Below, one piece after another: positions 1 through 26,451 of a stretch of 64,000 nucleotides of DNA. The position numbers were made by a program, and so were the translations under genes. Source of the stretch: a virus (taxonomy: Duplodnaviria; Caudoviricetes); IMG/VR virus record IMGVR_UViG_2923682817_000001, positions 32,001 through 96,000 of that record; one strand, 5' to 3'. The notes under the pieces were generated by a model. It made no database searches, had not been told where the DNA came from, and saw nothing but the letters and a program-made list of their open reading frames with translations. How positions within the stretch are numbered: position 1 is the first letter of the stretch; each line of letters begins with the position of its first letter.

Positions 1-15
1 TTGACCTTGTATTTG

Positions 16-597
16 ATCTTCCCCACTCTCCGGGGCCGAGAGCCGGGAAGCGCAGGGCGGGGATCTCCCCTCCCCTCGCGCAGACCTGGGCCAAAAAAGG
101 CGGTCTACACGAGGTGAGGGGAGACACGGAACTCTCCGTACGCCGCTTCGCGGTCGCTTGGTTGGTCACTCGTGCCGGACCGGGCATTACCACCGGTCCC
201 AGGGCGAGATGTTGTGCAGATCTAGTACCCGGCCCCATCTCGATGGGTCGTCATCCGTAGTACGACTGGACTGCCAGCCCCAGAGTGAGCCTGTCTTAGC
301 GTGCGCTCCCGGCCTCGCGGCGTTCACCCCAGCCCCGGGCCGAGCTCTACCGAAACGGCGGTCGCACCCGAGTACTGAAGCTAGGGAGCCAACCTCTGGC
401 TGCCTACACATTCAGTAAGACCGTTTACCCCCTCTCGGGGGCTCTCTCTACACCCGGTGGCCAAGCCGGTGGGAGGTTACTCATTCCGCCTTTTCCTCCG
501 CTGGCGGGACTGCCATCCACCGAGCCTCGTACGAGGGGCAGGGACTGCGCAGGGGCATGTTTCAGAGGGTGCCCACTCCCCAAAGTTGTTCGACGCG
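16..597 (-). ncRNA. candidate large structured non-coding RNA (unclassified; may continue off the left edge)
   Basis: No credible ORF. At least 10 adjacent inverted-repeat stems (18-50, 64-124, 126-139, 177-199, 205-242, 247-266, 373-417, 428-441, 484-509, 525-536). GNRA loops (GAGA, GCGA, GUAA) read on the minus strand, and a promoter-like element lies upstream. Confidence 0.55.
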
Positions 598-602
598 GCC
601 GA

Positions 603-631
603 AGTTACCAGGTATGGCCAGGTATGTACAG
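603..631 (-). promoter_or_regulatory. sigma70/HrdB-type promoter for the candidate ncRNA
   Basis: Minus strand reads TGTACA-17 nt-TAACTT with TG extension, downstream of the 729-756 terminator. Confidence 0.5.
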
Positions 632-728
632 CTGTTGCCAGCTGCAAGATCGGGGCAGCCTCGCGAGCGACCGCGGCGCCCGAGCGCATCGGGCCGGCCC
701 CCGCACGCGGCCGTCCGACAGACATGAC

Positions 729-756
729 AAGGCCCCCACCACTCGGCGGGGGCCTT
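729..756 (-). terminator. intrinsic terminator-like hairpin
   Basis: AAGGCCCCC...GGGGGCCTT right after the 773-1015 stop. Confidence 0.65.
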
Positions 757-772
757 GCCTACGTCTCGGGAT

Positions 773-1015: not shown

Positions 1016-1121
1016 GCGGCGATTCTAGCTGGAAGATCGCGCCGGAGCCACGGGGAAACCTGCTCACGAATACCGGAATGGTGTCCATAGACAGGTATGG
1101 CCAGCCACTAACACCTATAAG

Positions 1122-1715
1122 ATGCACATAACATCCACCAAGAACAGCGGAGTACCCGTGACGCATCACACCGGATCCCACTACACGCCCGGCTACGGCT
1201 ACCCGCCTGCACCGGTTCCGTCCCGCCCGGGATTCAGCGGCTTGACCGTCGTCCTCGTCGCCTCTGGAACGCTCCTGTCCGGCTGCTTCGGCGGATTCAT
1301 CATCGGCAGCGTGAGCGGATCCACCGCGGCGGCTCCCTCCGAGCGCACGACCCTCCCGCGGGCCAGCAAGGCCGCCGTGCCGACCCACAAGTCCACCCAG
1401 CCCCAGGCGGCCGAAGCCGAGGGCGAGCCGCGCAAGCCTCGCCCTGGCGACTTCCAGCTCTCGGTTAAGACCCTGAAGCAGTCCTGTTTCAGCTCGGCCG
1501 GCTGCCTCATCACCTTTCGAGTGGTGCCGTCCTACCGCGGGCCGGCCCTGGGTGACCAGCAGTACACCGTCACCTACAAGGTCACCGGCGGTAAGGAACC
1601 GAAGATCGGATCGTTCACGATGGTCGGCGCCCAGCTCTCCTACGACCGCCAGGATTTCCTCTCCACCAACTCCTCCGCGGACCGGCTCGCTGCCGAGGTG
1701 ACCGAGGTTCTCTGA
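1122..1715 (+). CDS. membrane-anchored protein (TM + Pro/Ala linker + CFxSAGC domain)
   Basis: Hydrophobic segment, linker, QSCFSSAGCLITF motif; followed by a terminator; start may be downstream (GTG near 1138). Confidence 0.75.
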   Translation: MHITSTKNSGVPVTHHTGSHYTPGYGYPPAPVPSRPGFSGLTVVLVASGTLLSGCFGGFIIGSVSGSTAAAPSERTTLPRASKAAVPTHKSTQPQAAEAEGEPRKPRPGDFQLSVKTLKQSCFSSAGCLITFRVVPSYRGPALGDQQYTVTYKVTGGKEPKIGSFTMVGAQLSYDRQDFLSTNSSADRLAAEVTEVL

Positions 1716-3050: not shown

Positions 3051-3446
3051 TCAGTACATGAACAGGAACCAGACGGTGCGGCCCTTGGCGCCGGCCTCTT
3101 CTCGAACCCCCCAGGCCTCCGACCGATCGCTCAGCAACTTCATGCCTCGGCCGCTCTCGGCGAGCTCGTCGACTTCGAGCACCTGCGGCGCCGACGACTC
3201 CGATCCGTCGTCGCGGACTTCGACGAGCACGTAGTCCGGACCGGTCTCCAGTCCGACGGCGACTTGCCCACCGTTTCCGGAACGCGTGTGGCGAACCGCG
3301 TTGGTAACGAGCTCGGAGACCGCCAGCACGAGGTCATCATGTAACGGGTGTTCGCTGCTGATCAGATCTCGCACCCAGTCGCGCGCCTGGCCGGGGGCCT
3401 GCGTTCCGCCCGGAACCTGGTACTCGGAAAGCAGTCCGATCATCAT
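3051..3446 (-). CDS. ATP-binding protein, HATPase_c/RsbW-like (AbaA-like anti-sigma-type)
   Basis: SELVTNAVRH, VEVRDDG, ESGRGMKL and TVWF GHKL motifs; divergent from the XRE gene. Confidence 0.9.
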   Translation of the reverse strand: MMIGLLSEYQVPGGTQAPGQARDWVRDLISSEHPLHDDLVLAVSELVTNAVRHTRSGNGGQVAVGLETGPDYVLVEVRDDGSESSAPQVLEVDELAESGRGMKLLSDRSEAWGVREEAGAKGRTVWFLFMY

Positions 3447-3654
3447 ACTTCGACCCTTTCGCCAGCCCCGATTTCGCTCAATGGTCAGCCCAAGGAGGCC
3501 CCATCCAGGCGAGAGCGCGAACGCCCAACATGCGGTGGAGGACCCGTTACTCTCGATCGTGACGGTTCGACACGCCCATGTAAAGCCGTTCGATCGGAAC
3601 GGTTCGAGTGACTTACGTTCCAAATCCAGGCAAAGGGTGCAGAAGGGGTGCGGT

Positions 3655-4512
3655 ATGGGTGGTAGATCAAGCCCGACCATCGGGCGGCGGCAGCTCGCTG
3701 GAGAACTCCGCAGGCTACGTACGGCAGCCAAGATGACTCGCGAGGATGTAGCCGAGCAGCTCGACTGCGCGCCGGCCACCGTCACGAAGTTCGAGAACGC
3801 AACGGCCGCGGTCAGCGTGGCCACAGTCGCAATGCTCATGGAGATCTACGGCGTCGCCGGCCCCGCTCGCGACGACATGCTGAAGCTTGCCCGCGAGGCC
3901 CGCCAGCGTGGATGGTGGCACCAGTACAGCCGAGCGATCCCAGCATGGTTTTCCGTCTACGTCGGCCTGGAGGAAGCAGCATCGGAGATCAGCTCCTGGC
4001 ACCCCGAAGTGCTTGACGGCCGACTTCAGACCGAAAGCTACATGCGCGCCCTGATCAGCGCCGAGCTGCCAGTCCCCGACGCCTCGGAGATCGACCGCCG
4101 GGTGGCCGTACGACTCAAGCGCCAGGAACGCCTACACGAATCCGAACCGCTCAGCCTCTGGGTCGTCATCGGCGAGGCCGCGCTGCGCCGGCTGGTCGGC
4201 GGCCCCGAAACCATGCGCGAACAGCTCGAACACCTTGTGCAGCAGTCCCTACTGAACAACGTGACCATTCAGGTTCTTCCGTACAAGACCGGCGCCTACC
4301 CCGGCATGCACGGCGGATTTCACCTGCTCCGCTTCCCAGAAGCCACCGGGGACGCCATCGTGTACGTTGAATACCAGCAGGGGTCCATTTACCTGGAGAA
4401 GAAGCCAGACGTGGCCTCCTATGATCGTCTCTTCGACCACCTCGTGGCCAGGGCTCTCGGCCCGGACGAATCCCGTGCCATGATCACGCAGGTGGCCGAG
4501 GAATACTCGTAG
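3655..4512 (+). CDS. XRE-family HTH regulator with DUF5753 domain (WhiJ/Scr1-like)
   Basis: RRQLAGELRRLR HTH, GWW, LQTESY, LWVVIGEAAL, QVLP and VYVE motifs; about 285 aa. Confidence 0.92.
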   Translation: MGGRSSPTIGRRQLAGELRRLRTAAKMTREDVAEQLDCAPATVTKFENATAAVSVATVAMLMEIYGVAGPARDDMLKLAREARQRGWWHQYSRAIPAWFSVYVGLEEAASEISSWHPEVLDGRLQTESYMRALISAELPVPDASEIDRRVAVRLKRQERLHESEPLSLWVVIGEAALRRLVGGPETMREQLEHLVQQSLLNNVTIQVLPYKTGAYPGMHGGFHLLRFPEATGDAIVYVEYQQGSIYLEKKPDVASYDRLFDHLVARALGPDESRAMITQVAEEYS

Positions 4513-15876: not shown

Positions 15877-17151
15877 TCATGCGGCCAGCGCGGCGGCGTC
15901 CTGGTCGGTGGGGCTCTTGGCGTCGAATCCGAGGGCCGACAGGATCTCGTTAGAGACCTGAAGGACGCGGGCGGCGCTGTCCTTCACGGCCTTGACGTCC
16001 TTCCCCCAGCCGGCCACGTAGGGGACCGCGTACTGAGCCGATTCGATGCCCGCGACAGTGGCGACCACGAACGACACCGACTCGGCCTCAACCTCCTGGG
16101 CCTCCCGGCTCATGCCTCGCGTGTTGTGCTCGCACATGATGTGCGCCAGCTCATGCGTGAGGGACGTCACGGCCTGCGCGTCGACCTGGTGGCCCTTGAC
16201 CACAACGCGCCGTTCGGCGAAGTTCACGAAAGCCTCAGCGCTCCCGGCGTCGCCACGCTCCAAGGTGTACCCGCGGGCCTCAACCTGCGCGGCCAGCGCA
16301 TCCCACAGCCACGCCGGAGCATCGCCGGTCAGATCCTGGGGAATCGGCGCGGCGGCCGTCGGCACTGGCTCCCCCTCGGTCTGGGAGATGTCGAACACCG
16401 GGACCAGGAAGAACCGCGTGGAGTCGAACCCGGAGATAAGGGTGATCTCGGTTTCCTGACCGGTCGCGGCGTCGGTCTCCGTAACGGTCATGGTGTCGGC
16501 CTTCTTGGTGCGGGGCGCCCAGACCTTGAGAGACTTGCTTCCCTTGATCACCGTTCGTCCAAGCTTGTTCCACTCCGAAAGCGGGCGGACGTCGGTTGCT
16601 TCGGGCATCTGGGTCCGCAGAAAAAGCGTGTTGTTCAGGCTGTACTTACGCAGGGACGCCCGGAATCGGAGCATCTCGGCCCAACCCTCCGCGGTGGTCA
16701 GGGTCTCTACCGCGGCCGTCAGTGCCTCGTGGGCTTCCTGCATGCGCTTGGCGCGCTCCTCCGGGGTGAGACTGAACCGACCGGACTTCTTCTTGCCGGT
16801 CTTCTTCTTGCCGTTCTTCGCGGTGGTGGACTTCTTGGCCGGTGCGGCGGCGGCCTTGACGGGCTCGGGCTTGGGCTCAGGCTTGACCGGCTCGGGCTGC
16901 TGGCCGTCGATCTCAGCGAGGGCCGCCCGCCCAAGGTCGGTGATCACATAGGCCCAGTTGCTGCGGTCGGTCGGGGTGTTCTTCTCGACCAGACCGCGCC
17001 GCTTGAGAGCCTGCACCGAGTTGGCGTTAACGCCAGCCCTGCGCATGTCGTCCAGGAAGGCGGCCACGCTGCCGCCGGCGACTGCGAGATTCCGGAGGCT
17101 GGTGATCATCAGGGCGGAGAGGCCGCGGACGTTGTCGAGAGTGTTCGCCAT
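15877..17151 (-). CDS. ardC: ArdC-family ssDNA-binding/anti-restriction protein with an extra N-terminal wHTH
   Basis: YSLNNTL, WNKLGRTV.KG, PVFDISQTEG, HELAH zincin motif, EAESVSF. Confidence 0.85.
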   Translation of the reverse strand: MANTLDNVRGLSALMITSLRNLAVAGGSVAAFLDDMRRAGVNANSVQALKRRGLVEKNTPTDRSNWAYVITDLGRAALAEIDGQQPEPVKPEPKPEPVKAAAAPAKKSTTAKNGKKKTGKKKSGRFSLTPEERAKRMQEAHEALTAAVETLTTAEGWAEMLRFRASLRKYSLNNTLFLRTQMPEATDVRPLSEWNKLGRTVIKGSKSLKVWAPRTKKADTMTVTETDAATGQETEITLISGFDSTRFFLVPVFDISQTEGEPVPTAAAPIPQDLTGDAPAWLWDALAAQVEARGYTLERGDAGSAEAFVNFAERRVVVKGHQVDAQAVTSLTHELAHIMCEHNTRGMSREAQEVEAESVSFVVATVAGIESAQYAVPYVAGWGKDVKAVKDSAARVLQVSNEILSALGFDAKSPTDQDAAALAA

Positions 17152-20896: not shown

Positions 20897-21226
20897 ATGG
20901 CCGAGAAGCAATGGTCGGTCCAGGTCGACTGGGGAAACGTCCCCAGCGAGCGCGAGATAGACACCATGCTGGACTACCTGAACGAGCACCGGCCGGACAC
21001 GCTCCCCGCTCTGGGCATCCTGGAGAACGGCCTGATGTCGGCTCGGCTGATGATCGCGACCCATGAGGGCTGGGACGCCGAGGCGGCCCTGTCGAGCGCT
21101 CGAAGGGCTCTCCAGCGCGCCCAGGGGGTCAGAGACCTGAGTATCCGACGGGTGGAGGTCATGCCCTGGGCGGAGTTCCTGGAGCGTGAGGAGGCGTTTG
21201 CGGACGGGGCGATGATCTCGACCTGA
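20897..21226 (+). CDS. HicB-like partner N-domain without the usual C-terminal HTH
   Basis: Position after the HicA-like gene; WSV..D..AEAAL..RVEVMPWAEFLER ends where an HTH would normally begin. Confidence 0.45.
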   Translation: MAEKQWSVQVDWGNVPSEREIDTMLDYLNEHRPDTLPALGILENGLMSARLMIATHEGWDAEAALSSARRALQRAQGVRDLSIRRVEVMPWAEFLEREEAFADGAMIST

Positions 21227-21240
21227 CCGGCGCCCTTTAG

Positions 21241-21375
21241 GCCCCCGTTCCCCCTATGGGATCGGGGGCTTTTTGCTGCTCACAGTCTTTTTTGAGGAAT
21301 GTATTGCGCTGCATTCCTTGTCGGTGCTACGGTATTCACATCCACCAAGAACAACCGACAAGGAGCCACCACATG
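21241..21375 (+). promoter_or_regulatory. early expression cassette (terminator 21241-21273; operator 21295-21318)
   Basis: TTGCGC-18-TACGGT; CCACCAAGAACAACCGACAAGGAG leader. Confidence 0.8.
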
Positions 21376-21636
21376 GCCCGCAACCTTCTCGCCAGCACCG
21401 ACTACCGGGTGCGCCTTCAGATGGCACTCACCCTGCGCGCCGACCGGCTGGCCGACCTTCAGGGCCTTGAGACCGAGCTGACGGAGGCGGCCGACGGCTT
21501 CACCCGCGGAATCCTGCGGACCCGCATTCGCGCCACGTCCAACCACATCGCGGGCTGGGAGGACTACATCAACGACGGCTGCCCCTACGAGCCGCGCGCC
21601 CAGGTCACCCGCTCCACCTACCGCCGTACCGCCTGA
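21373..21636 (+). CDS. hypothetical protein
   Basis: Cassette leader and RBS. Confidence 0.8.
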   Translation: MARNLLASTDYRVRLQMALTLRADRLADLQGLETELTEAADGFTRGILRTRIRATSNHIAGWEDYINDGCPYEPRAQVTRSTYRRTA

Positions 21637-21645
21637 GGGGACGAC

Positions 21646-21813
21646 ATGACCGACGGTGAATTTCCCACGCTCCCCATCCTGTGCCCCGCCTGCTTTTTCA
21701 ACCTCAAGGACGACGGCTACCCCAGAGCACACCAGAACGCCACGGACGGGAAGACCTGCTCCTACGAGCTCAGCCCCGCATTGCTGGACTTCTGGTCCGA
21801 CCCTGACGCCTGA
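21646..21813 (+). CDS. 55-aa CxxC..H..C small protein (not in the ORF track)
   Basis: MTDGEFPTLPILCPACFFNL..H..KTC; GAGGGG RBS. Confidence 0.6.
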   Translation: MTDGEFPTLPILCPACFFNLKDDGYPRAHQNATDGKTCSYELSPALLDFWSDPDA

Positions 21814-21824
21814 AGGGAGCTGTT

Positions 21825-22106
21825 ATGCGTACCTGTCTCACCCCTGATCAGTTGGCAAGCCTCGCCGCGCAGGGATTCGCCGAGTCACAGCGCAGCCGCT
21901 TCGTTGACCCTGACGCAGTCGCCAAGTCCAAGCGGATTCTTTGCGAACGCGGAGAGGAATGGGCCGCAAGCGTTCTCATGCGCGACCTTTCCCGCCGGTC
22001 TCTCCTGCTTCCCCATCTTCCGTACCTGGAGAACGGCGAGTTGGAAACGCTCATCCTTGCCGACCGCGCCGAATGGGATCAGCTCGCGGCGCTGGCTCAG
22101 GCATAA
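21825..22106 (+). CDS. hypothetical protein
   Basis: AAGGGAG RBS. Confidence 0.7.
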   Translation: MRTCLTPDQLASLAAQGFAESQRSRFVDPDAVAKSKRILCERGEEWAASVLMRDLSRRSLLLPHLPYLENGELETLILADRAEWDQLAALAQA

Positions 22107-22135
22107 CCACCCTGAAAATACGAGAGGAACCGATC

Positions 22136-22492
22136 ATGGAACAGACCACCGTAGACCAGCAGATTTCCGAGGCCGAGCAGCGTGCGGCGCTGGCCCAGAC
22201 CCGCGCGGACTGGGAGAAGTTCGACGGCATCCGCCAGCGGGTGAACGCCATGGACATCATGGTCGACGCCTTGCGCGGCAAGACGGCCGACGGCCCGTGG
22301 CTGATCACGGCCGGAGCCATCCGCGTGAAGGACCTGGAGAAGCTCGTCACCCTGGCCGAAATCGCGCTCCGGGTCCACCGCGAGATCCAGTCGTGCGCGG
22401 ACCAGCAGATCCCCCTTGAGGGCCGCGAATCTGAGCTGGCATTCGACCTCTGGAACCGCGTCAACACCTTGAACGCCCAGCAGTCCGAGTAA
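22136..22492 (+). CDS. hypothetical protein, paralog family member (C-domain only)
   Basis: FDGIRQRVNAM..DLEKLVTLAE..LWNRVNTLNA. Confidence 0.8.
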   Translation: MEQTTVDQQISEAEQRAALAQTRADWEKFDGIRQRVNAMDIMVDALRGKTADGPWLITAGAIRVKDLEKLVTLAEIALRVHREIQSCADQQIPLEGRESELAFDLWNRVNTLNAQQSE

Positions 22493-22578: not shown

Positions 22579-23277
22579 GTGAAGAAGTCCGGCATCAAGC
22601 CTGGCGAGTTCTACGCCCTGAACAATCGCTACAGCACCGACCTGGTACGCGTGATCAATCTCGACCAGCTGGTGGTCAACGTTGACCGGAGCTGGGACCG
22701 CACCGTTCGAGCGTGCTTCGAGACCTCCCGCGACAAGCGGCCGACCCGCTGGAACTACGCGCAGGCCTCGGGATTCGCCGCGGTGAAGCTGGCGAGCGAC
22801 ACCCCCGAGCTGCGCGAGGCCGCGGCCAAGCTGACCCTTGACGACTTTCTGGCCGCCACGAATTCCGAGCCGGCTGACGGTCTGGAATTCGTGATCGTGA
22901 CGACCCTGGCCAAGATCCTCGGCCCGTACACGGAGGTTATGGCCGCCAAGGAGGCCGAGGAGGAGCGGGCGAGGCTTGCCCGCGAGCAGTCCGAGAAGAA
23001 GGCCGCGGAAGTGGCTGAACGGTTCAACGGCATTCGCGGGCGGCTCAACGCGATGGGCGTCACCGTCTTCCCCGAGCGCGTTGGCGGGACCATGTCAGGA
23101 AGGGCCTACATGGACGACTTGGAGCGGCTCGCCGCGCTGGCCGAACTCGCGGTTGATCTGCACACCAAGATTGACCAGGGCGCCGGATCCTTCGAGATGG
23201 CGTCGATCGAAGCGCATAGGTACGGCGCGGGATACGCGTTTGGGGTCTGGGAGAAGGTCCAGGCTCTGAACGCCTAG
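22579..23277 (+). CDS. hypothetical protein, paralog family member
   Basis: MKKSGIKPG.FYA; FNGIRGRLNAM..DLERLAALAE..VWEKVQALNA. Confidence 0.8.
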   Translation: MKKSGIKPGEFYALNNRYSTDLVRVINLDQLVVNVDRSWDRTVRACFETSRDKRPTRWNYAQASGFAAVKLASDTPELREAAAKLTLDDFLAATNSEPADGLEFVIVTTLAKILGPYTEVMAAKEAEEERARLAREQSEKKAAEVAERFNGIRGRLNAMGVTVFPERVGGTMSGRAYMDDLERLAALAELAVDLHTKIDQGAGSFEMASIEAHRYGAGYAFGVWEKVQALNA

Positions 23278-23381
23278 TTGTCCCAGTGGTCCTGTTCGCC
23301 GGCGGGCCGATTTGGTCCGACCCGCCGGCGGGCAAGGCCGCTCGGCCAGCTCCGCTACGCACCACCGAAGGGAATCCGATC

Positions 23382-24074
23382 ATGAAGCGCTCCGAGATCG
23401 TACTTGGCTCCGTCTACGCACACCAGCGCACTGGTGGACACGCTGAACCGATCATGTTCGTGTCGACGAGCTCCATCTACGAGCAGTGCTCGCGCGCTAA
23501 CTCCCCCGTCGGCGGTGTTTTCCGCCAGACGAGCGATGTTCGGCCGCGGTCCCGCTACGGCGTCGCCCTGTCCGGCTACCCCGTGGTGCGGCTGATCGTC
23601 GACACGCCGGAGAACCGCAAGCGCGCCGCCGAGGTCTCCATGGAGGACTTCGAGCACGCCACCACGGCTGACCTCGGGGACGGTCTGTGGCTCGATGTCG
23701 TGGCCCGTACGCAGCTAATCACGGGCCTGTATGACGTGCTGAAGGCCGAGACCGCCGCACGCGACGAGCGCAGCCGGGCCGCCCTCTCAGAGCACGAGGC
23801 GAAGGCCGCCGCCAGCCGCCAGCACTACAACGACACGCGCAACAGCCTGTCCGTCTACGGGGTCAAGCTGCGCGAGCTGAGCCCCTACGACGACGACATC
23901 ATCACTCACGCGAAGGTCAAGCTGGAGGACCTGGACAAGCTGCGCGGCATCCTGGACACCGTGCGCAACCTGGAGATGCTCGTCAAGGAGTGGGACACGG
24001 GCGGCCAGACGGAAACCGCGGCTGAGATCGTTCTGATTCTCCGCAACCTGCAGCGCGGTCTCGTCTCCGAGTAG
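23382..24074 (+). CDS. hypothetical protein, paralog family member
   Basis: MKRSEIVLGSVYA; DTPE.R..AA; LEDLDKL. Confidence 0.8.
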   Translation: MKRSEIVLGSVYAHQRTGGHAEPIMFVSTSSIYEQCSRANSPVGGVFRQTSDVRPRSRYGVALSGYPVVRLIVDTPENRKRAAEVSMEDFEHATTADLGDGLWLDVVARTQLITGLYDVLKAETAARDERSRAALSEHEAKAAASRQHYNDTRNSLSVYGVKLRELSPYDDDIITHAKVKLEDLDKLRGILDTVRNLEMLVKEWDTGGQTETAAEIVLILRNLQRGLVSE

Positions 24075-24957: not shown

Positions 24958-26451
24958 TCAGTCTCCGATCACCTCGGCCTCAACAATGCCGGCGTCAGCG
25001 AAGACGTGGTCCGACTGCACCGGGGCCGCCAGTGCCCGAGCCGATTCCGACGCGTCTTTGCCGAACAGTCTGGCGATCATTCCGGACTGGGCCTGAGCTC
25101 GGGACGAGGCCTTGACCGAGATGGACAGCGTTTCCGATTCCGACTCGCGGTGCTTGGCGATGCTGCGGTCCCATCCGTCCAGCTCCTTAGTCAGGTTCGG
25201 GTCGGCGTATCCGCCTTCCATCTGCTCGACCATGTGCATGAACGCGATTCGCTGGAATCTGATGGCTCGGATTGCGTCGTCGGCGGCGTCGATCTGCTCG
25301 CGCGTCCGCAACGTGATGGGCACCTCATAGGCGCAGCCGGCGTCAGGGCGAAATGCCTTGCAGTGGGAGGCGATATAGCAACTATTGCACTGGCGTAGGG
25401 ACGTGCCGGCGATGCTCGGCAGGTTGTCGGTGCGGCTGATCTGCTCGCCGTTTTCTCCCAGCTCAGAGCGTGAAACCTGGCGGAGCGAGAGGCCCGGGAG
25501 GAGCTCGCGTTCGCTCTCGTCGCGGGCGACCGCAGTTGTGGTTTTGGTCCGAGCTTCTGGGGTGTCCATCCCAACTACGGCAGGGGTGGTTTCCCCATTT
25601 ACGTCCGTGACCGGTTCAGGCGACATAGTAAGTGTTTTCTTTCGCGAGTTGAGATGTCCGACCAGCTGGCGCCACGACCAGACGGCGACCTTCAGGACCT
25701 CGGTGGAGTCGTCGCCCTCGAACAGGTCCGTGTCGAATCCCTCACGGTCCAGGTGCGCGCGGTGACGCTTGCGGCCCTGCGCCTTGTAGGCCTTGGGGTA
25801 GCGCTTCAACGTGTGGCCGGTCCAGATCTGGGAGTCGCCGTACTGGGCCGGCGACAGCCAGCTGGTGGATGCGACCGAGTCCCAGGCGATCGACTCCATG
25901 AGGTCCGGCTTGGTCATTGCGATGCCGTGCAGACGAACCCCGCGGCGGGCGATCCGGTTGAGGACGCCGGCGATGTCTCGGCCGGAGATCGACGTCTGCG
26001 GCACCCCGACGCGGCCGTAAGAGTCCGCCAGGCGCTCCAGCTCGGGCAGGCCGGCGGCTGCGTCCCAGATCGGGAGGAATTTCTCCCCCAGGTCGCCGTA
26101 GAAGTCCGATCGCTGGCGCTCGATCCAGTCCGGTCCCATGGCGCGGGCGTCCAACTCGGAGACCATCTCGACCCTGTCCAGGTTCGCCAGGACGAAAGCC
26201 TGATAGCGGTCCGACAGGGTCTCGATGTCCTCGCGGCTGTAGGAATCCGGTTTGCTGTTGACGGTGTAGGCGCCGGAGTCCAGGAAGACGCGTTGTCCGT
26301 CTGGGTATTTGTCGCTGATGAGCCATGGCCGGGCGAATTTCGTCCGGCGGGACAGACCGACGAAGGACAAGCCAACGTCGGTCACGTCCTGCTCGGCGAG
26401 GAGCTTGCGCCAGCCTGGGATCTCCGACCCACCGAAGTAGAGGGTCAGCAC
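24958..26451 (-). CDS. tRNA-guanine transglycosylase (TGT/DpdA)-like domain fused to a Cys-rich C-terminal domain
   Basis: VFLDSGAYT, ELD, FLPIW, RLHGIA, DSVASTSW; C-terminal CNSC..C..C. Confidence 0.6.
   Translation of the reverse strand: MLTLYFGGSEIPGWRKLLAEQDVTDVGLSFVGLSRRTKFARPWLISDKYPDGQRVFLDSGAYTVNSKPDSYSREDIETLSDRYQAFVLANLDRVEMVSELDARAMGPDWIERQRSDFYGDLGEKFLPIWDAAAGLPELERLADSYGRVGVPQTSISGRDIAGVLNRIARRGVRLHGIAMTKPDLMESIAWDSVASTSWLSPAQYGDSQIWTGHTLKRYPKAYKAQGRKRHRAHLDREGFDTDLFEGDDSTEVLKVAVWSWRQLVGHLNSRKKTLTMSPEPVTDVNGETTPAVVGMDTPEARTKTTTAVARDESERELLPGLSLRQVSRSELGENGEQISRTDNLPSIAGTSLRQCNSCYIASHCKAFRPDAGCAYEVPITLRTREQIDAADDAIRAIRFQRIAFMHMVEQMEGGYADPNLTKELDGWDRSIAKHRESESETLSISVKASSRAQAQSGMIARLFGKDASESARALAAPVQSDHVFADAGIVEAEVIGD

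What the first reader, a model, noticed from the sequence alone, without database searches (positions are those of the whole stretch)
16..631. Candidate ~600-nt highly structured phage ncRNA with its own promoter
Seen: no GC3-biased ORF over 600 nt, and nearly every base falls in a stem (e.g. 64-124 TCTCCCCTC..CCTCG/CGAGG..GAGGGGAGA; 373-417 TACTGAA..TAGG..AGCC/GGCT..CCTA..TTCAGTA; 177-199; 205-242). On the minus strand, stems are capped by GNRA loops (CCCCC-GAGA-GGGGG, GCC-GCGA-GGC, GGTG-GTAA-TGCC), and GCAGUCC recurs three times. The region lies downstream of a terminator and a TGTACA-17-TAACTT promoter. Inference: a large ncRNA in the size class of GOLLD/ROOL/OLE-type phage RNAs, or an RNA partner of a protein encoded left of the window. 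I could not match it to tmRNA, RNase P, tRNA or a complete intron.
Basis: partly seen in the sequence, partly recalled or inferred. Interest (0 to 1): 0.8.

Follow-up and report, generated by a model that had tools for sequence, protein, structure and literature searches.

The report
New large structured phage RNA candidate
A roughly 580-base stretch of a large actinomycete phage codes for no protein, folds into an elaborate conserved shape and looks like a gene for a previously undescribed large RNA, whose job is still unknown.

Summary
Window 16-596 lies in a 1,119-nt gap without any GC3-biased ORF, inside a 105.5-kb phage-like contig. It folds better than shuffled controls on both strands. 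No Rfam family, tRNA or tmRNA matches it.

One homolog was found, in a 110-kb phage contig of another genus (G088:C45). The two phages share only 51% PolA identity and one weakly similar neighbouring protein. The element nevertheless keeps near-identical blocks separated by helices with compensatory changes, including helices whose arms lie about 110-190 nt apart. Of 15 internal indels, 13 are not multiples of three.

The consensus fold favours the minus strand (-158 kcal/mol, z -8.9, against -128, z -3.9). GNRA-capped hairpins are also enriched on the minus strand.

Best reading: a stand-alone, leftward-transcribed structured ncRNA of a new family, similar in kind to GOLLD and ROOL but not a member of either.

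Limits: only two sequences, no expression data, and function unknown. Sequence and structure models found nothing in 21 related phage records. Several of those relatives carry a tRNA cluster in the same neighbourhood. A ColE1-like or mycobacteriophage-like RNA-based replication origin remains a live alternative.

The parts
16..596 (-). Candidate structured ncRNA, about 580 nt. The core conserved with the homolog is about 16-530, plus a conserved 5' block at 586-595.
   Evidence: Alignments A1, A5, A7-A9. Consensus folds and shuffles. No GC3-biased ORF. No conserved ORF.
602..630 (-). Possible weak promoter: TGTACA (625-630), a 17-nt spacer, then TAACTT (602-607).
   Evidence: Read. It matches 7 of 12 consensus positions and was not reported by the scan. 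The homolog has TAAACT at a comparable place upstream of the shared GTCGAACAA block. This part is inference only.
586..595 (-). Conserved block, GTCGAACAA on the minus strand, near the presumed 5' end.
   Evidence: TTGTTCGACG is present in both copies, at window 586-595 and L027 8893-8902.
472..499 (-). A 5-bp covarying stem (499-495 / 476-472) that closes an invariant loop, AAGGCGGAAUGAGUA.
   Evidence: 2 compensatory pairs. The block is 86% identical by mean column identity (A8).
427..442 (-). Hairpin capped by GAGA (loop 433-436). The homolog has a shorter stem capped by GAAA.
403..410 (-). 5' arm of the long-range helix that pairs with 213-220.
   Evidence: 8 pairs: 3 compensatory, 1 one-sided, and one G-U kept in both copies (helix 1).
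213..220 (-). 3' arm of the long-range helix that pairs with 403-410.
   Evidence: helix 1.
280..399 (-). Inner domain. It is closed by helix 399-395 / 284-280. It contains helix 391-384 / 310-302, helix 373-367 / 332-326, and the invariant GCC-GCGA-GGC hairpin at 312-321.
   Evidence: helices 2-6.
225..279 (-). Two hairpin arms. The first is 263-255 / 232-225, enclosing 247-242 / 239-234. The second is 279-275 / 268-264. The invariant single-stranded block CUACGGAUGAC (249-260) lies here.
   Evidence: 2, 3 and 2 compensatory pairs respectively (helices 7-9).
174..205 (-). Hairpin 199-193 / 183-177, extended by 205-203 / 176-174. Its loop holds the conserved GUAA (187-190).
   Evidence: 1 compensatory pair. 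The loop-closing G-U here corresponds to A-U in the homolog.
63..125 (-). Long hairpin, about 23 bp here and about 28 bp in the homolog.
   Evidence: Its sequence is almost wholly different between the copies, yet the pairing is kept. 10 compensatory pairs. The two C-A mismatches seen on the plus strand read as G-U on the minus strand.
18..50 (-). 3'-terminal G+C-rich stem-loop, a possible terminator without a U tract.
   Evidence: The terminator role is inference.
727..760 (-). Terminator-like hairpin of the upstream leftward gene (773-1015, zinc-finger-like). It separates that gene from the element.
1..15 (.). Right edge of the most A+T-rich 200 nt of the whole contig (C4:31851-32050, 47.5% G+C). 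The tract holds three TTTGATC(T/G)T repeats and mostly lies left of the window.
   Evidence: The tract is not conserved in the homolog.

Best explanation
Window ~16-596 is a gene for a stand-alone, highly structured non-coding RNA of about 580 nt. It belongs to a family that has not been described.

The RNA is most likely transcribed leftward, on the minus strand. It would start just right of the conserved GTCGAACAA block and end at the G+C-rich stem-loop at 18-50.

The fold has several parts:
- a long 3' hairpin (63-125);
- a GUAA-containing hairpin (177-199);
- a central multi-branch domain closed by two nested long-range helices (403-410 / 213-220 and 395-399 / 280-284);
- a 5' region with an invariant 15-nt loop.

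Conserved GNRA tetraloops and invariant single-stranded blocks suggest a compact tertiary fold. The RNA would then work as a folded particle, either an RNA-only assembly or the RNA part of an RNP, rather than by simple antisense pairing.

It sits in the accessory, lysogeny and counter-defence part of a ~105-kb temperate-type actinophage. Several related phages carry a tRNA cluster in that neighbourhood.

Shown here: non-coding character, conservation above that of the flanking genes, and compensatory changes. Inferred: transcription, strand, ends, tertiary fold and mode of action.
For: NON-CODING.
- There is a 1,119-nt gap with no GC3-biased ORF.
- 13 of 15 internal indels between the copies are not multiples of three, and no ORF is conserved.

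PHAGE CONTEXT.
- C4 is a 105,521-bp contig with 65.5% G+C, against 71-72% for the two large contigs, C1 and C2.
- It encodes PolA, RNR, a DnaB-like helicase, a DpdA-like protein, Lsr2, MazG and an integrase.

HOMOLOG.
- G088:C45 matches at 85% over query 441-508 and 70% over 14-224, colinear.
- Mean column identity is 79% over window 128-500.
- By contrast, the two PolA proteins are 51% identical.
- Of all GC3-biased ORFs in the 16-kb and 18-kb loci fetched around the two copies, only one protein pair matches: DUF397, 41% over 59 aa.

STRUCTURE.
- Consensus fold on the alignment with the long hairpin re-registered: minus -158.4 kcal/mol against shuffles -95.6 +/- 7.1 (z -8.9); plus -128.4 (z -3.9).
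- 39 compensatory pairs against a mean of 21 and a maximum of 29 in shuffles. 0 of 60 shuffles reach the observed count.
- Central domain on an untouched MAFFT alignment: 51 pairs, 99% of cells paired. 13 pairs changed on both sides, against 6.6 +/- 1.8 in shuffles (0 of 500) and 0-2 when the partners are slid.

STRAND.
- GNRA loops closed by at least 3 pairs: 4 on minus against 0 on plus here, and 4 against 1 in the homolog.
- GCGA, GUAA and GAGA/GAAA lie at matching places in the two copies.

NOT A KNOWN FAMILY. No Rfam family reaches threshold. The only weak hits are miRNA-hairpin models on the long stem.
Against: - Only two sequences are known, so covariation rests on one comparison. The tested structure was derived from those same sequences.
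- The alignment of the long hairpin was re-registered by me.
- No RNA data exist, and no consensus promoter or terminator was reported by the scans in either copy.
- Single-sequence folding of the homolog favours the plus strand (z -7.71 against -5.12).
- G-U counts do not discriminate the strands: 15-17 in the minus-derived structure, 13-16 in the plus-derived one.
- A plus-strand alternative helix (286-297 / 317-326) is also kept in both copies.
- Models found nothing in 21 related phage records, 4 of them CheckV-complete IMG/VR genomes and 4 more deposited as complete genomes. The element is therefore rare and dispensable for that phage type.
Confidence: 0.6

Rival explanations
1. RNA-based replication or maintenance origin. 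The transcript, or the act of transcribing it, primes or opens DNA replication at the adjacent A+T-rich tract. This would let the phage persist as an episome without a Rep protein. ColE1 RNA II works this way, and so, by proposal, do the ~400-500-bp non-coding 'ori' regions of non-RepA parABS mycobacteriophages.
For: - Wetzel et al. 2020 (PMC7157519; I read sections 7, 10 and 15 and passages). A 400-497-bp transcribed non-coding region is needed for stable lysogeny of phages Alma and LadyBird. [quoted passage not shown]
- Both carriers of our element are separate ~105-110-kb contigs in genome assemblies that the genome search rates 99.6-100% complete, apparently of single organisms.
- BLAST of C4 against the other contigs shows no integrated copy and no att-like exact match.
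- The lowest-G+C 200 nt of the contig abuts the RNA's 3' end in the minus sense.
- The phage encodes its own family-A polymerase.
- The element was not found in 21 relatives, which are isolated phages or metagenome contigs.
Against: - No ParB_N or AAA_31 (ParA) match lies on C4 or C45.
- Both contigs carry tyrosine integrases, and C4 also has an excisionase-like HTH_17 protein. That fits integration rather than plasmid maintenance.
- The A+T-rich tract is not conserved in the homolog.
- blastn against 50,697 phage records gave no match, so there is no similarity to cluster A phages.
- Conserved GNRA loops and nested long-range helices are more than a primer needs.
Confidence: 0.2
2. The same structured RNA, but transcribed rightward on the plus strand from the A+T-rich tract to its left.
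For: - The homolog's plus strand folds better on its own (-313.2 against -306.6 kcal/mol; z -7.71 against -5.12).
- Helix 286-297 / 317-326 uses G-U pairs that are valid only on the plus strand in both copies.
- The plus-strand consensus fold also beats shuffles: z -3.9, and 38 compensatory pairs against 20.
Against: - The consensus energy is 30 kcal/mol worse than for the minus strand.
- GNRA-capped hairpins number 0 and 1 on plus, against 4 and 4 on minus.
- The long-range helix 213-221 / 402-410 and the long hairpin carry internal C-A mismatches on plus that read as G-U on minus.
- The A+T-rich upstream tract is absent from the homolog.
Confidence: 0.15
3. A cis-acting DNA element that works as DNA, not as RNA. 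Candidates are a protein-bound regulatory or operator region, a packaging site, or a single-strand initiation site.
For: - The operator-like motif CCTGTCTATGG flanks the region: twice in C4 and once beside the homolog. These are the only matches on the two phage contigs; all other 1-mismatch matches lie on other contigs at control frequency.
- Direct repeats CCGGTGG lie 12 nt apart at 454-471.
- G-U and A-C counts are balanced between the strands.
Against: - Compensatory changes in helices whose arms lie 110-190 nt apart need a single-stranded fold.
- Duplex DNA sites do not explain conserved tetraloops or the 30 kcal/mol strand asymmetry.
- There is no integrase or terminase gene next to the element.
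Confidence: 0.1
4. A non-functional remnant that looks conserved only because of recent lateral transfer between the two phages.
For: The flanking genes differ between the two phages, so the segment has moved as a module.
Against: Divergence is uneven. Near-identical blocks alternate with stems that are fully resubstituted but still pair, and compensatory pairs exceed all shuffles.
Confidence: 0.05

Closest known systems
ROOL and GOLLD RNAs (large ornate bacterial and phage ncRNAs)
   Same: Same size class: ROOL averages 581 nt. They are elaborate multi-junction folds found in prophages or phages, often near tRNA genes, with unknown function. Source: Weinberg et al. 2017, PMC5737381, passages read. 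In our case, related phages carry a tRNA cluster in the same neighbourhood.
   Different: The element gives no match to any Rfam model, even at E <= 5. The host is an actinomycete phage with ~65% G+C. Only two copies are known, whereas those families are widespread. No tRNA lies on this contig.
Non-coding 'ori' RNA regions of non-RepA parABS cluster A mycobacteriophages, and ColE1 RNA II
   Same: A 400-550-nt non-coding transcribed region in an actinophage that is carried extrachromosomally (PMC7157519). Here an A+T-rich tract lies next to the element.
   Different: There is no parABS on the contig. Integrases are present. There is no sequence similarity. Replication function is untested.
Phage tRNA clusters and the Ro/Y-RNA module of related Streptomyces phages
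   Same: The element occupies the same accessory neighbourhood, between the Lsr2-like and the HTH-DUF5753 genes. Relatives G428 and G430 have tRNA genes there. In phage GiJojo the tRNA cluster holds a Ro-like RNA-binding protein.
   Different: ARAGORN finds no real tRNA or tmRNA in the element or on the contig. There is no TROVE (Ro) protein on C4 or C45. The element is far larger than a Y RNA; that size comparison is recalled, not tested.

Membership tests
GOLLD / ROOL / OLE / raiA / HEARO and all other Rfam 15 families | A match to the family covariance model at its gathering score. | tested here: not met
   0 matches at gathering over the whole window. At E <= 5 the only hits on either copy of the element are miRNA-precursor models on the long hairpin, at 17-25 bits against gathering scores of 60-168. 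The one exception is a 16-bit hit to sRNA P17 (gathering 45) in the homolog.
tRNA / tmRNA | A cloverleaf, or a tRNA-like domain plus a tag reading frame, detected by ARAGORN. | tested here: not met
   Nothing in 1-700. The only call on the contig is a 91-nt 'tRNA-Cys(aca)' inside a coding ORF.
Group I / group II intron, RNase P RNA | A match to the Rfam catalytic-core models. For introns, also interruption of a reading frame. | tested here: not met
   No Rfam hit. The flanks are a terminated Lsr2 gene and a terminated zinc-finger gene, not split exons.
RNA-based prophage origin (non-RepA parABS mycobacteriophage type) | The element lies next to a parABS partition cassette. | tested here: not met
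   No ParB_N (PF02195) or AAA_31 (PF13614) match on C4 or G088:C45.
RNA-based prophage origin (non-RepA parABS mycobacteriophage type) | [quoted passage not shown] | not testable with these tools
   This needs cloning and deletion experiments and RNA-seq. No RNA run was listed.
Ro / Y-RNA module | A TROVE-domain Ro-like protein encoded beside the RNA. | tested here: not met
   PF05731 finds nothing on C4 or C45. The only hit in G088 lies on another contig.
Structured ncRNA gene (generic) | No coding potential, and no ORF conserved between copies. | tested here: met
Structured ncRNA gene (generic) | Helices maintained by compensatory substitutions, beyond what controls give. | tested here: met
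   This rests on two sequences only, and the structure was derived from those same sequences.
Structured ncRNA gene (generic) | A discrete transcript. | not testable with these tools
   No RNA holder was listed.

The most novel reading that the evidence does not exclude
This is the founding member of a new class of ornate, ~580-nt phage RNA in actinomycete phages. It would fold into a GNRA-stabilised tertiary structure and act on its own: as a ribozyme, as an RNA-only assembly, or as a Rep-protein-free replication or maintenance RNA that lets a 105-kb phage persist as an episome.
Probability: 0.3. Interest if true: 0.8.

Novelty: new variant of a known kind. Interest (0 to 1): 0.65.

Why it matters
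Large, intricately folded bacterial and phage RNAs are rare. Past examples (ribosomal RNA, RNase P, group I/II introns, and more recently GOLLD, ROOL and OLE) turned out to do unusual chemistry or to form unusual assemblies.

I found no description of such an RNA for high-G+C actinomycete phages. Four literature searches and Rfam 15 turned up nothing like it.

This candidate is better conserved than the phage's own DNA polymerase, so it is under strong selection. It comes with a concrete, testable secondary structure.

If it proves to be an RNA-based replicon, it would also give a compact plasmid origin for genetically difficult actinomycetes.

Tried and rejected
SEARCHES FOR MORE COPIES. Apart from the one hit in G088, all came back empty or with chance hits only.
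- blastn 'distant' against plasmids and phages, with both copies as query.
- 40 genomes of the window's genus. 3 of 39 gave only 34-58-nt G+C-rich matches at E ~1e-4.
- 400 genomes of the family. 33 of 400 matched at E <= 0.01. All but G088 were 22-60-nt matches at E >= 3e-5.
- 7 genomes of G088's genus.
- A second family draw, centred on G088: 1 of 401, G088 itself.
- Relatives of the flanking proteins in IMG/VR: none.
- Three IMG/VR pattern scans: only the G088 phage, plus two chance matches inside coding sequence.
- The genome contigs pattern scan: the G088 record plus two chance hits.
- The metagenome pattern scan: 21 loci. BLAST showed that none shares anything beyond the pattern.
- Sequence-only model R1 and structured models R2 and R3 on 4 Streptomyces phage genomes and 17 IMG/VR relatives: only noise at 10-15 bits. 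One further record, L082, was not held and so was not searched. The positive control scored 96-317 bits.

EXPRESSION. No RNA holder was listed. Laying three DNA runs showed no variant or joint.

IDEAS CONSIDERED AND DROPPED.
- The three GCAGUCC repeats as an RNase-P-like motif: they are not conserved.
- A small ORF starting at the conserved AUG in the 15-nt loop: the peptides differ and the frame shifts.
- A degenerate tRNA array: no T-loop-like blocks.
- attP: there is no adjacent integrase and no host match.
- G-U against A-C counting to assign the strand: it does not discriminate.
- RNAalifold on raw MAFFT alignments mis-registers the long hairpin.
- A brute-force stem search was too noisy to use.

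OTHER LIMITS.
- Supplementary files of the papers were not seen. Table S1 and the supplementary figures of PMC7157519 might bear on ori RNA sizes.

Full report
WHERE THE FINDING LIES.
The window is C4:32001-96000 of a 5-contig, 10.5-Mb genome. C4 is a separate 105,521-bp contig with 65.5% G+C, against 71-72% for the two large contigs, C1 and C2.

C4 encodes a family-A DNA polymerase, ribonucleotide reductase, a DnaB-like helicase, a DpdA-like transglycosylase, Lsr2, MazG, an RNA ligase, an Acb2/Tad1-like protein and a tyrosine integrase. Its polymerase is 46% identical to that of the ~112-116-kb Streptomyces phages GiJojo, Alone3, LuckySocke, pSt2308 and BRock. C4 is therefore a large actinophage genome, or a phage-like episome.

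GC3-based gene calling leaves a 1,119-nt gap without a credible ORF at C4:31654-32772, which is window -346..772. To the left lie an Lsr2 gene, its terminator hairpin, and the most A+T-rich 200 nt of the whole contig (47.5% G+C) with three TTTGATC(T/G)T repeats. To the right lie a strong hairpin (727-760) and a leftward zinc-finger-like ORF at 773-1015.

CHECK OF THE OBSERVATION.
The stems and the three minus-strand GNRA loops are in the sequence.

Folding energy beats dinucleotide shuffles:
- Own sequence, minus: -288.4 kcal/mol against -269.0 +/- 4.4, z -4.40.
- Own sequence, plus: z -2.73.
- 0 of 20 shuffles are as good in either case.

The 'promoter' is weak (7 of 12 consensus positions) and the scan did not report it. 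GCAGUCC occurs three times on the minus strand here, but 0 times in the homolog.

NOT A KNOWN RNA.
Rfam 15 gives nothing at gathering thresholds over the whole window. At E <= 5 the only hits on the element are generic miRNA-hairpin models on the long stem, in both copies, apart from a 16-bit hit to sRNA P17 in the homolog. ARAGORN finds no tRNA or tmRNA in the element.

A HOMOLOG.
A DNA search of 400 genomes of the same family gave one real match, G088:C45. It has two colinear pieces: 85% over query 441-508 (E 1.5e-12) and 70% over 14-224 (E 1.7e-8).

C45 is a 110,447-bp contig. The same sequence is an IMG/VR virus record that CheckV rates 100% complete. It is also a genome contigs record whose title the tool printed as Herbidospora galbida NEAU-GS14 Scaffold33.

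The two phages are distant:
- PolA is 51% identical.
- Among all GC3-biased ORFs in the 16-kb and 18-kb loci fetched around the two copies, only a DUF397 protein pair matches, at 41% over 59 aa.

The element, by contrast, aligns at 79% mean column identity over window 128-500, with several blocks of 10-25 identical bases. The non-coding element is thus the best-conserved feature of this part of the two genomes. It sits between unrelated genes, so it behaves as an independent module.

Coding is excluded. 13 of 15 internal indels are not multiples of three. The best six-frame match is 35% over 72 aa in a single frame pair and does not extend further.

STRUCTURE.
The long hairpin (63-125 here; L027 8384-8449 in the homolog) has almost no sequence in common between the copies, yet it pairs perfectly in both.

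I re-registered that hairpin from its base and kept MAFFT for the rest. RNAalifold then gives:
- Minus strand: -158.4 kcal/mol, against -95.6 +/- 7.1 for 60 conservation-preserving column shuffles (z -8.9).
- Plus strand: -128.4 kcal/mol (z -3.9).

On the raw MAFFT alignment the z-scores were -4.7 for minus and -2.5 for plus.

The minus consensus has 131 pairs. 126 are paired in both sequences and 39 are changed on both sides. Shuffles give a mean of 21 and a maximum of 29, so 0 of 60 reach the observed count.

On an untouched MAFFT alignment of the central domain (window 205-418), the structure has 51 pairs in 9 helices:
- 99% of cells are paired.
- 13 pairs are changed on both sides.
- Shuffles give 6.6 +/- 1.8 (0 of 500 reach 13).
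- Sliding the partners by 1-3 columns gives 0-2.

Key helices, 5' arm / 3' arm on the minus strand:
- 410-403 / 220-213: 8 bp, 3 compensatory, one G-U kept in both copies.
- 399-395 / 284-280.
- 391-384 / 310-302.
- 373-367 / 332-326.
- 279-275 / 268-264.
- 263-255 / 232-225.
- 247-242 / 239-234.
- 499-495 / 476-472, which closes the invariant loop AAGGCGGAAUGAGUA.
- 199-193 / 183-177.

Covarying helices whose arms lie 110-190 nt apart need a single-stranded fold. That argues for RNA rather than a duplex DNA site.

Caveats: there are only two sequences, the structure was derived from them, and RNAalifold rewards covariation. The shuffled controls answer the last point only in part.

STRAND.
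For minus:
- The 30 kcal/mol better consensus fold.
- GNRA loops closed by at least 3 pairs: 4 on minus against 0 on plus here, 4 against 1 in the homolog.
- GCGA, GUAA and GAGA/GAAA lie at matching places.
- Internal C-A mismatches on plus read as G-U on minus in the long hairpin and in helix 403-410 / 213-220.
- A -10-like TAACTT (TAAACT in the homolog) lies upstream of the shared GTCGAACAA block.

Against minus:
- The homolog alone folds better on plus.
- G-U counts are balanced between the strands.
- A plus-only alternative helix, 286-297 / 317-326, exists in both copies.

I put the minus strand at roughly 70-75%, given that the element is an RNA.

DISTRIBUTION AND CONTEXT.
A protein search with a PolA alignment found 28 related IMG/VR loci. 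Models R1 (sequence only), R2 and R3 (structured) found nothing above noise in 17 of those records or in 4 named Streptomyces phages. The control record scored 96-317 bits. The element is therefore rare within this phage group.

In relatives G428 and G430, the neighbourhood between the HTH-DUF5753 gene and the Lsr2-like gene holds tRNA genes: His, Asn, Leu, Phe and Pro in G428. GiJojo has a cluster of more than 20 tRNA genes with a Ro-like RNA-binding protein. C4 has no real tRNA and no TROVE protein. [quoted passage not shown]

FUNCTION (INFERENCE).
The general reading is a stand-alone folded RNA of a new family.

One specific alternative with a precedent is an RNA-based origin. In non-RepA parABS mycobacteriophages, a 400-497-bp transcribed non-coding region is needed for stable lysogeny, and such regions support autonomous replication (PMC7157519; sections 7, 10 and 15 and passages read).

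For that alternative:
- Both carriers are separate contigs in genome assemblies that appear to be of single organisms.
- BLAST shows no integrated copy and no att-like match.
- The A+T-rich tract abuts the RNA's 3' end.

Against it:
- There is no ParB or ParA on either contig.
- Integrases are present.
- The A+T-rich tract is not conserved.
- There is no similarity to cluster A phages.

WHAT COULD NOT BE DONE.
Supplements of the papers were not seen.

VERDICT.
This is a real, selected, non-coding structured element. It is most likely a new large phage ncRNA on the minus strand. Its function is open, and the evidence rests on two copies.

Noticed in passing
window 1085-1096 (-); also C4:30770-30781 (left of the window) and G088:C45:14105-14116; a partial copy at window 609-622: The 12-mer ACCTGTCTATGG occurs exactly twice on the phage contig, in the two divergent-promoter gaps that flank the element. 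Its 11-base core CCTGTCTATGG also occurs beside the homologous element in the other phage. All other 1-mismatch matches in both genomes lie on other contigs, at control frequency. It looks like an operator or promoter motif of a shared phage regulator.
   Followed up: partly
window 1-50, and 150 nt to the left (C4:31851-32050): This is the lowest-G+C 200 nt of the 105-kb contig (47.5%). It has three TTTGATC(T/G)T repeats and a TTGACCTGGTCAA palindrome, right after an Lsr2 gene. It is not conserved in the homolog. It could be a DNA-unwinding element or an Lsr2-binding tract.
   Followed up: partly
window 1541-1631 (+): ARAGORN calls a 91-nt tRNA-Cys(aca) inside the GC3-biased ORF 1122-1715 (PHROG 30705/6812, unknown function). 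It is most likely a false positive.
   Followed up: no
left of the window: C4:27147-27365 (-), 23182-24018 (-), 21043-22395 (+); window 15877-17151 (-), 24958-26451 (-): An accessory and counter-defence gene set: an Acb2/Tad1 hairpin-domain protein, an RNA ligase, a tyrosine integrase with an HTH_17 excisionase-like neighbour, an ArdC-like anti-restriction protein, and a DpdA-like transglycosylase (7-deazaguanine DNA modification).
   Followed up: partly
whole contig C4 (the window is C4:32001-96000): The phage is a separate 105.5-kb contig. BLAST against the other contigs found no integrated copy and no att-like exact match, although the contig encodes an integrase. No ParA or ParB was found on it. 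Whether it is an episome, an induced phage or a carrier-state phage remains open.
   Followed up: partly
L109 (Streptomyces phage GiJojo 5.7-12.4 kb); L096 (G428 101.7-103.3 kb): Related phages carry tRNA clusters in the corresponding accessory region. In GiJojo the cluster includes a Ro-like RNA-binding protein, which hints at a Y-RNA module there.
   Followed up: no
window 3286-4512 (+), and C4:30503-30742 (-) left of the window: The phage encodes an HTH_31-DUF5753 regulator and a DUF397 protein, a pair typical of actinomycete developmental regulators. Both are also present near the element in the homologous phage.
   Followed up: no
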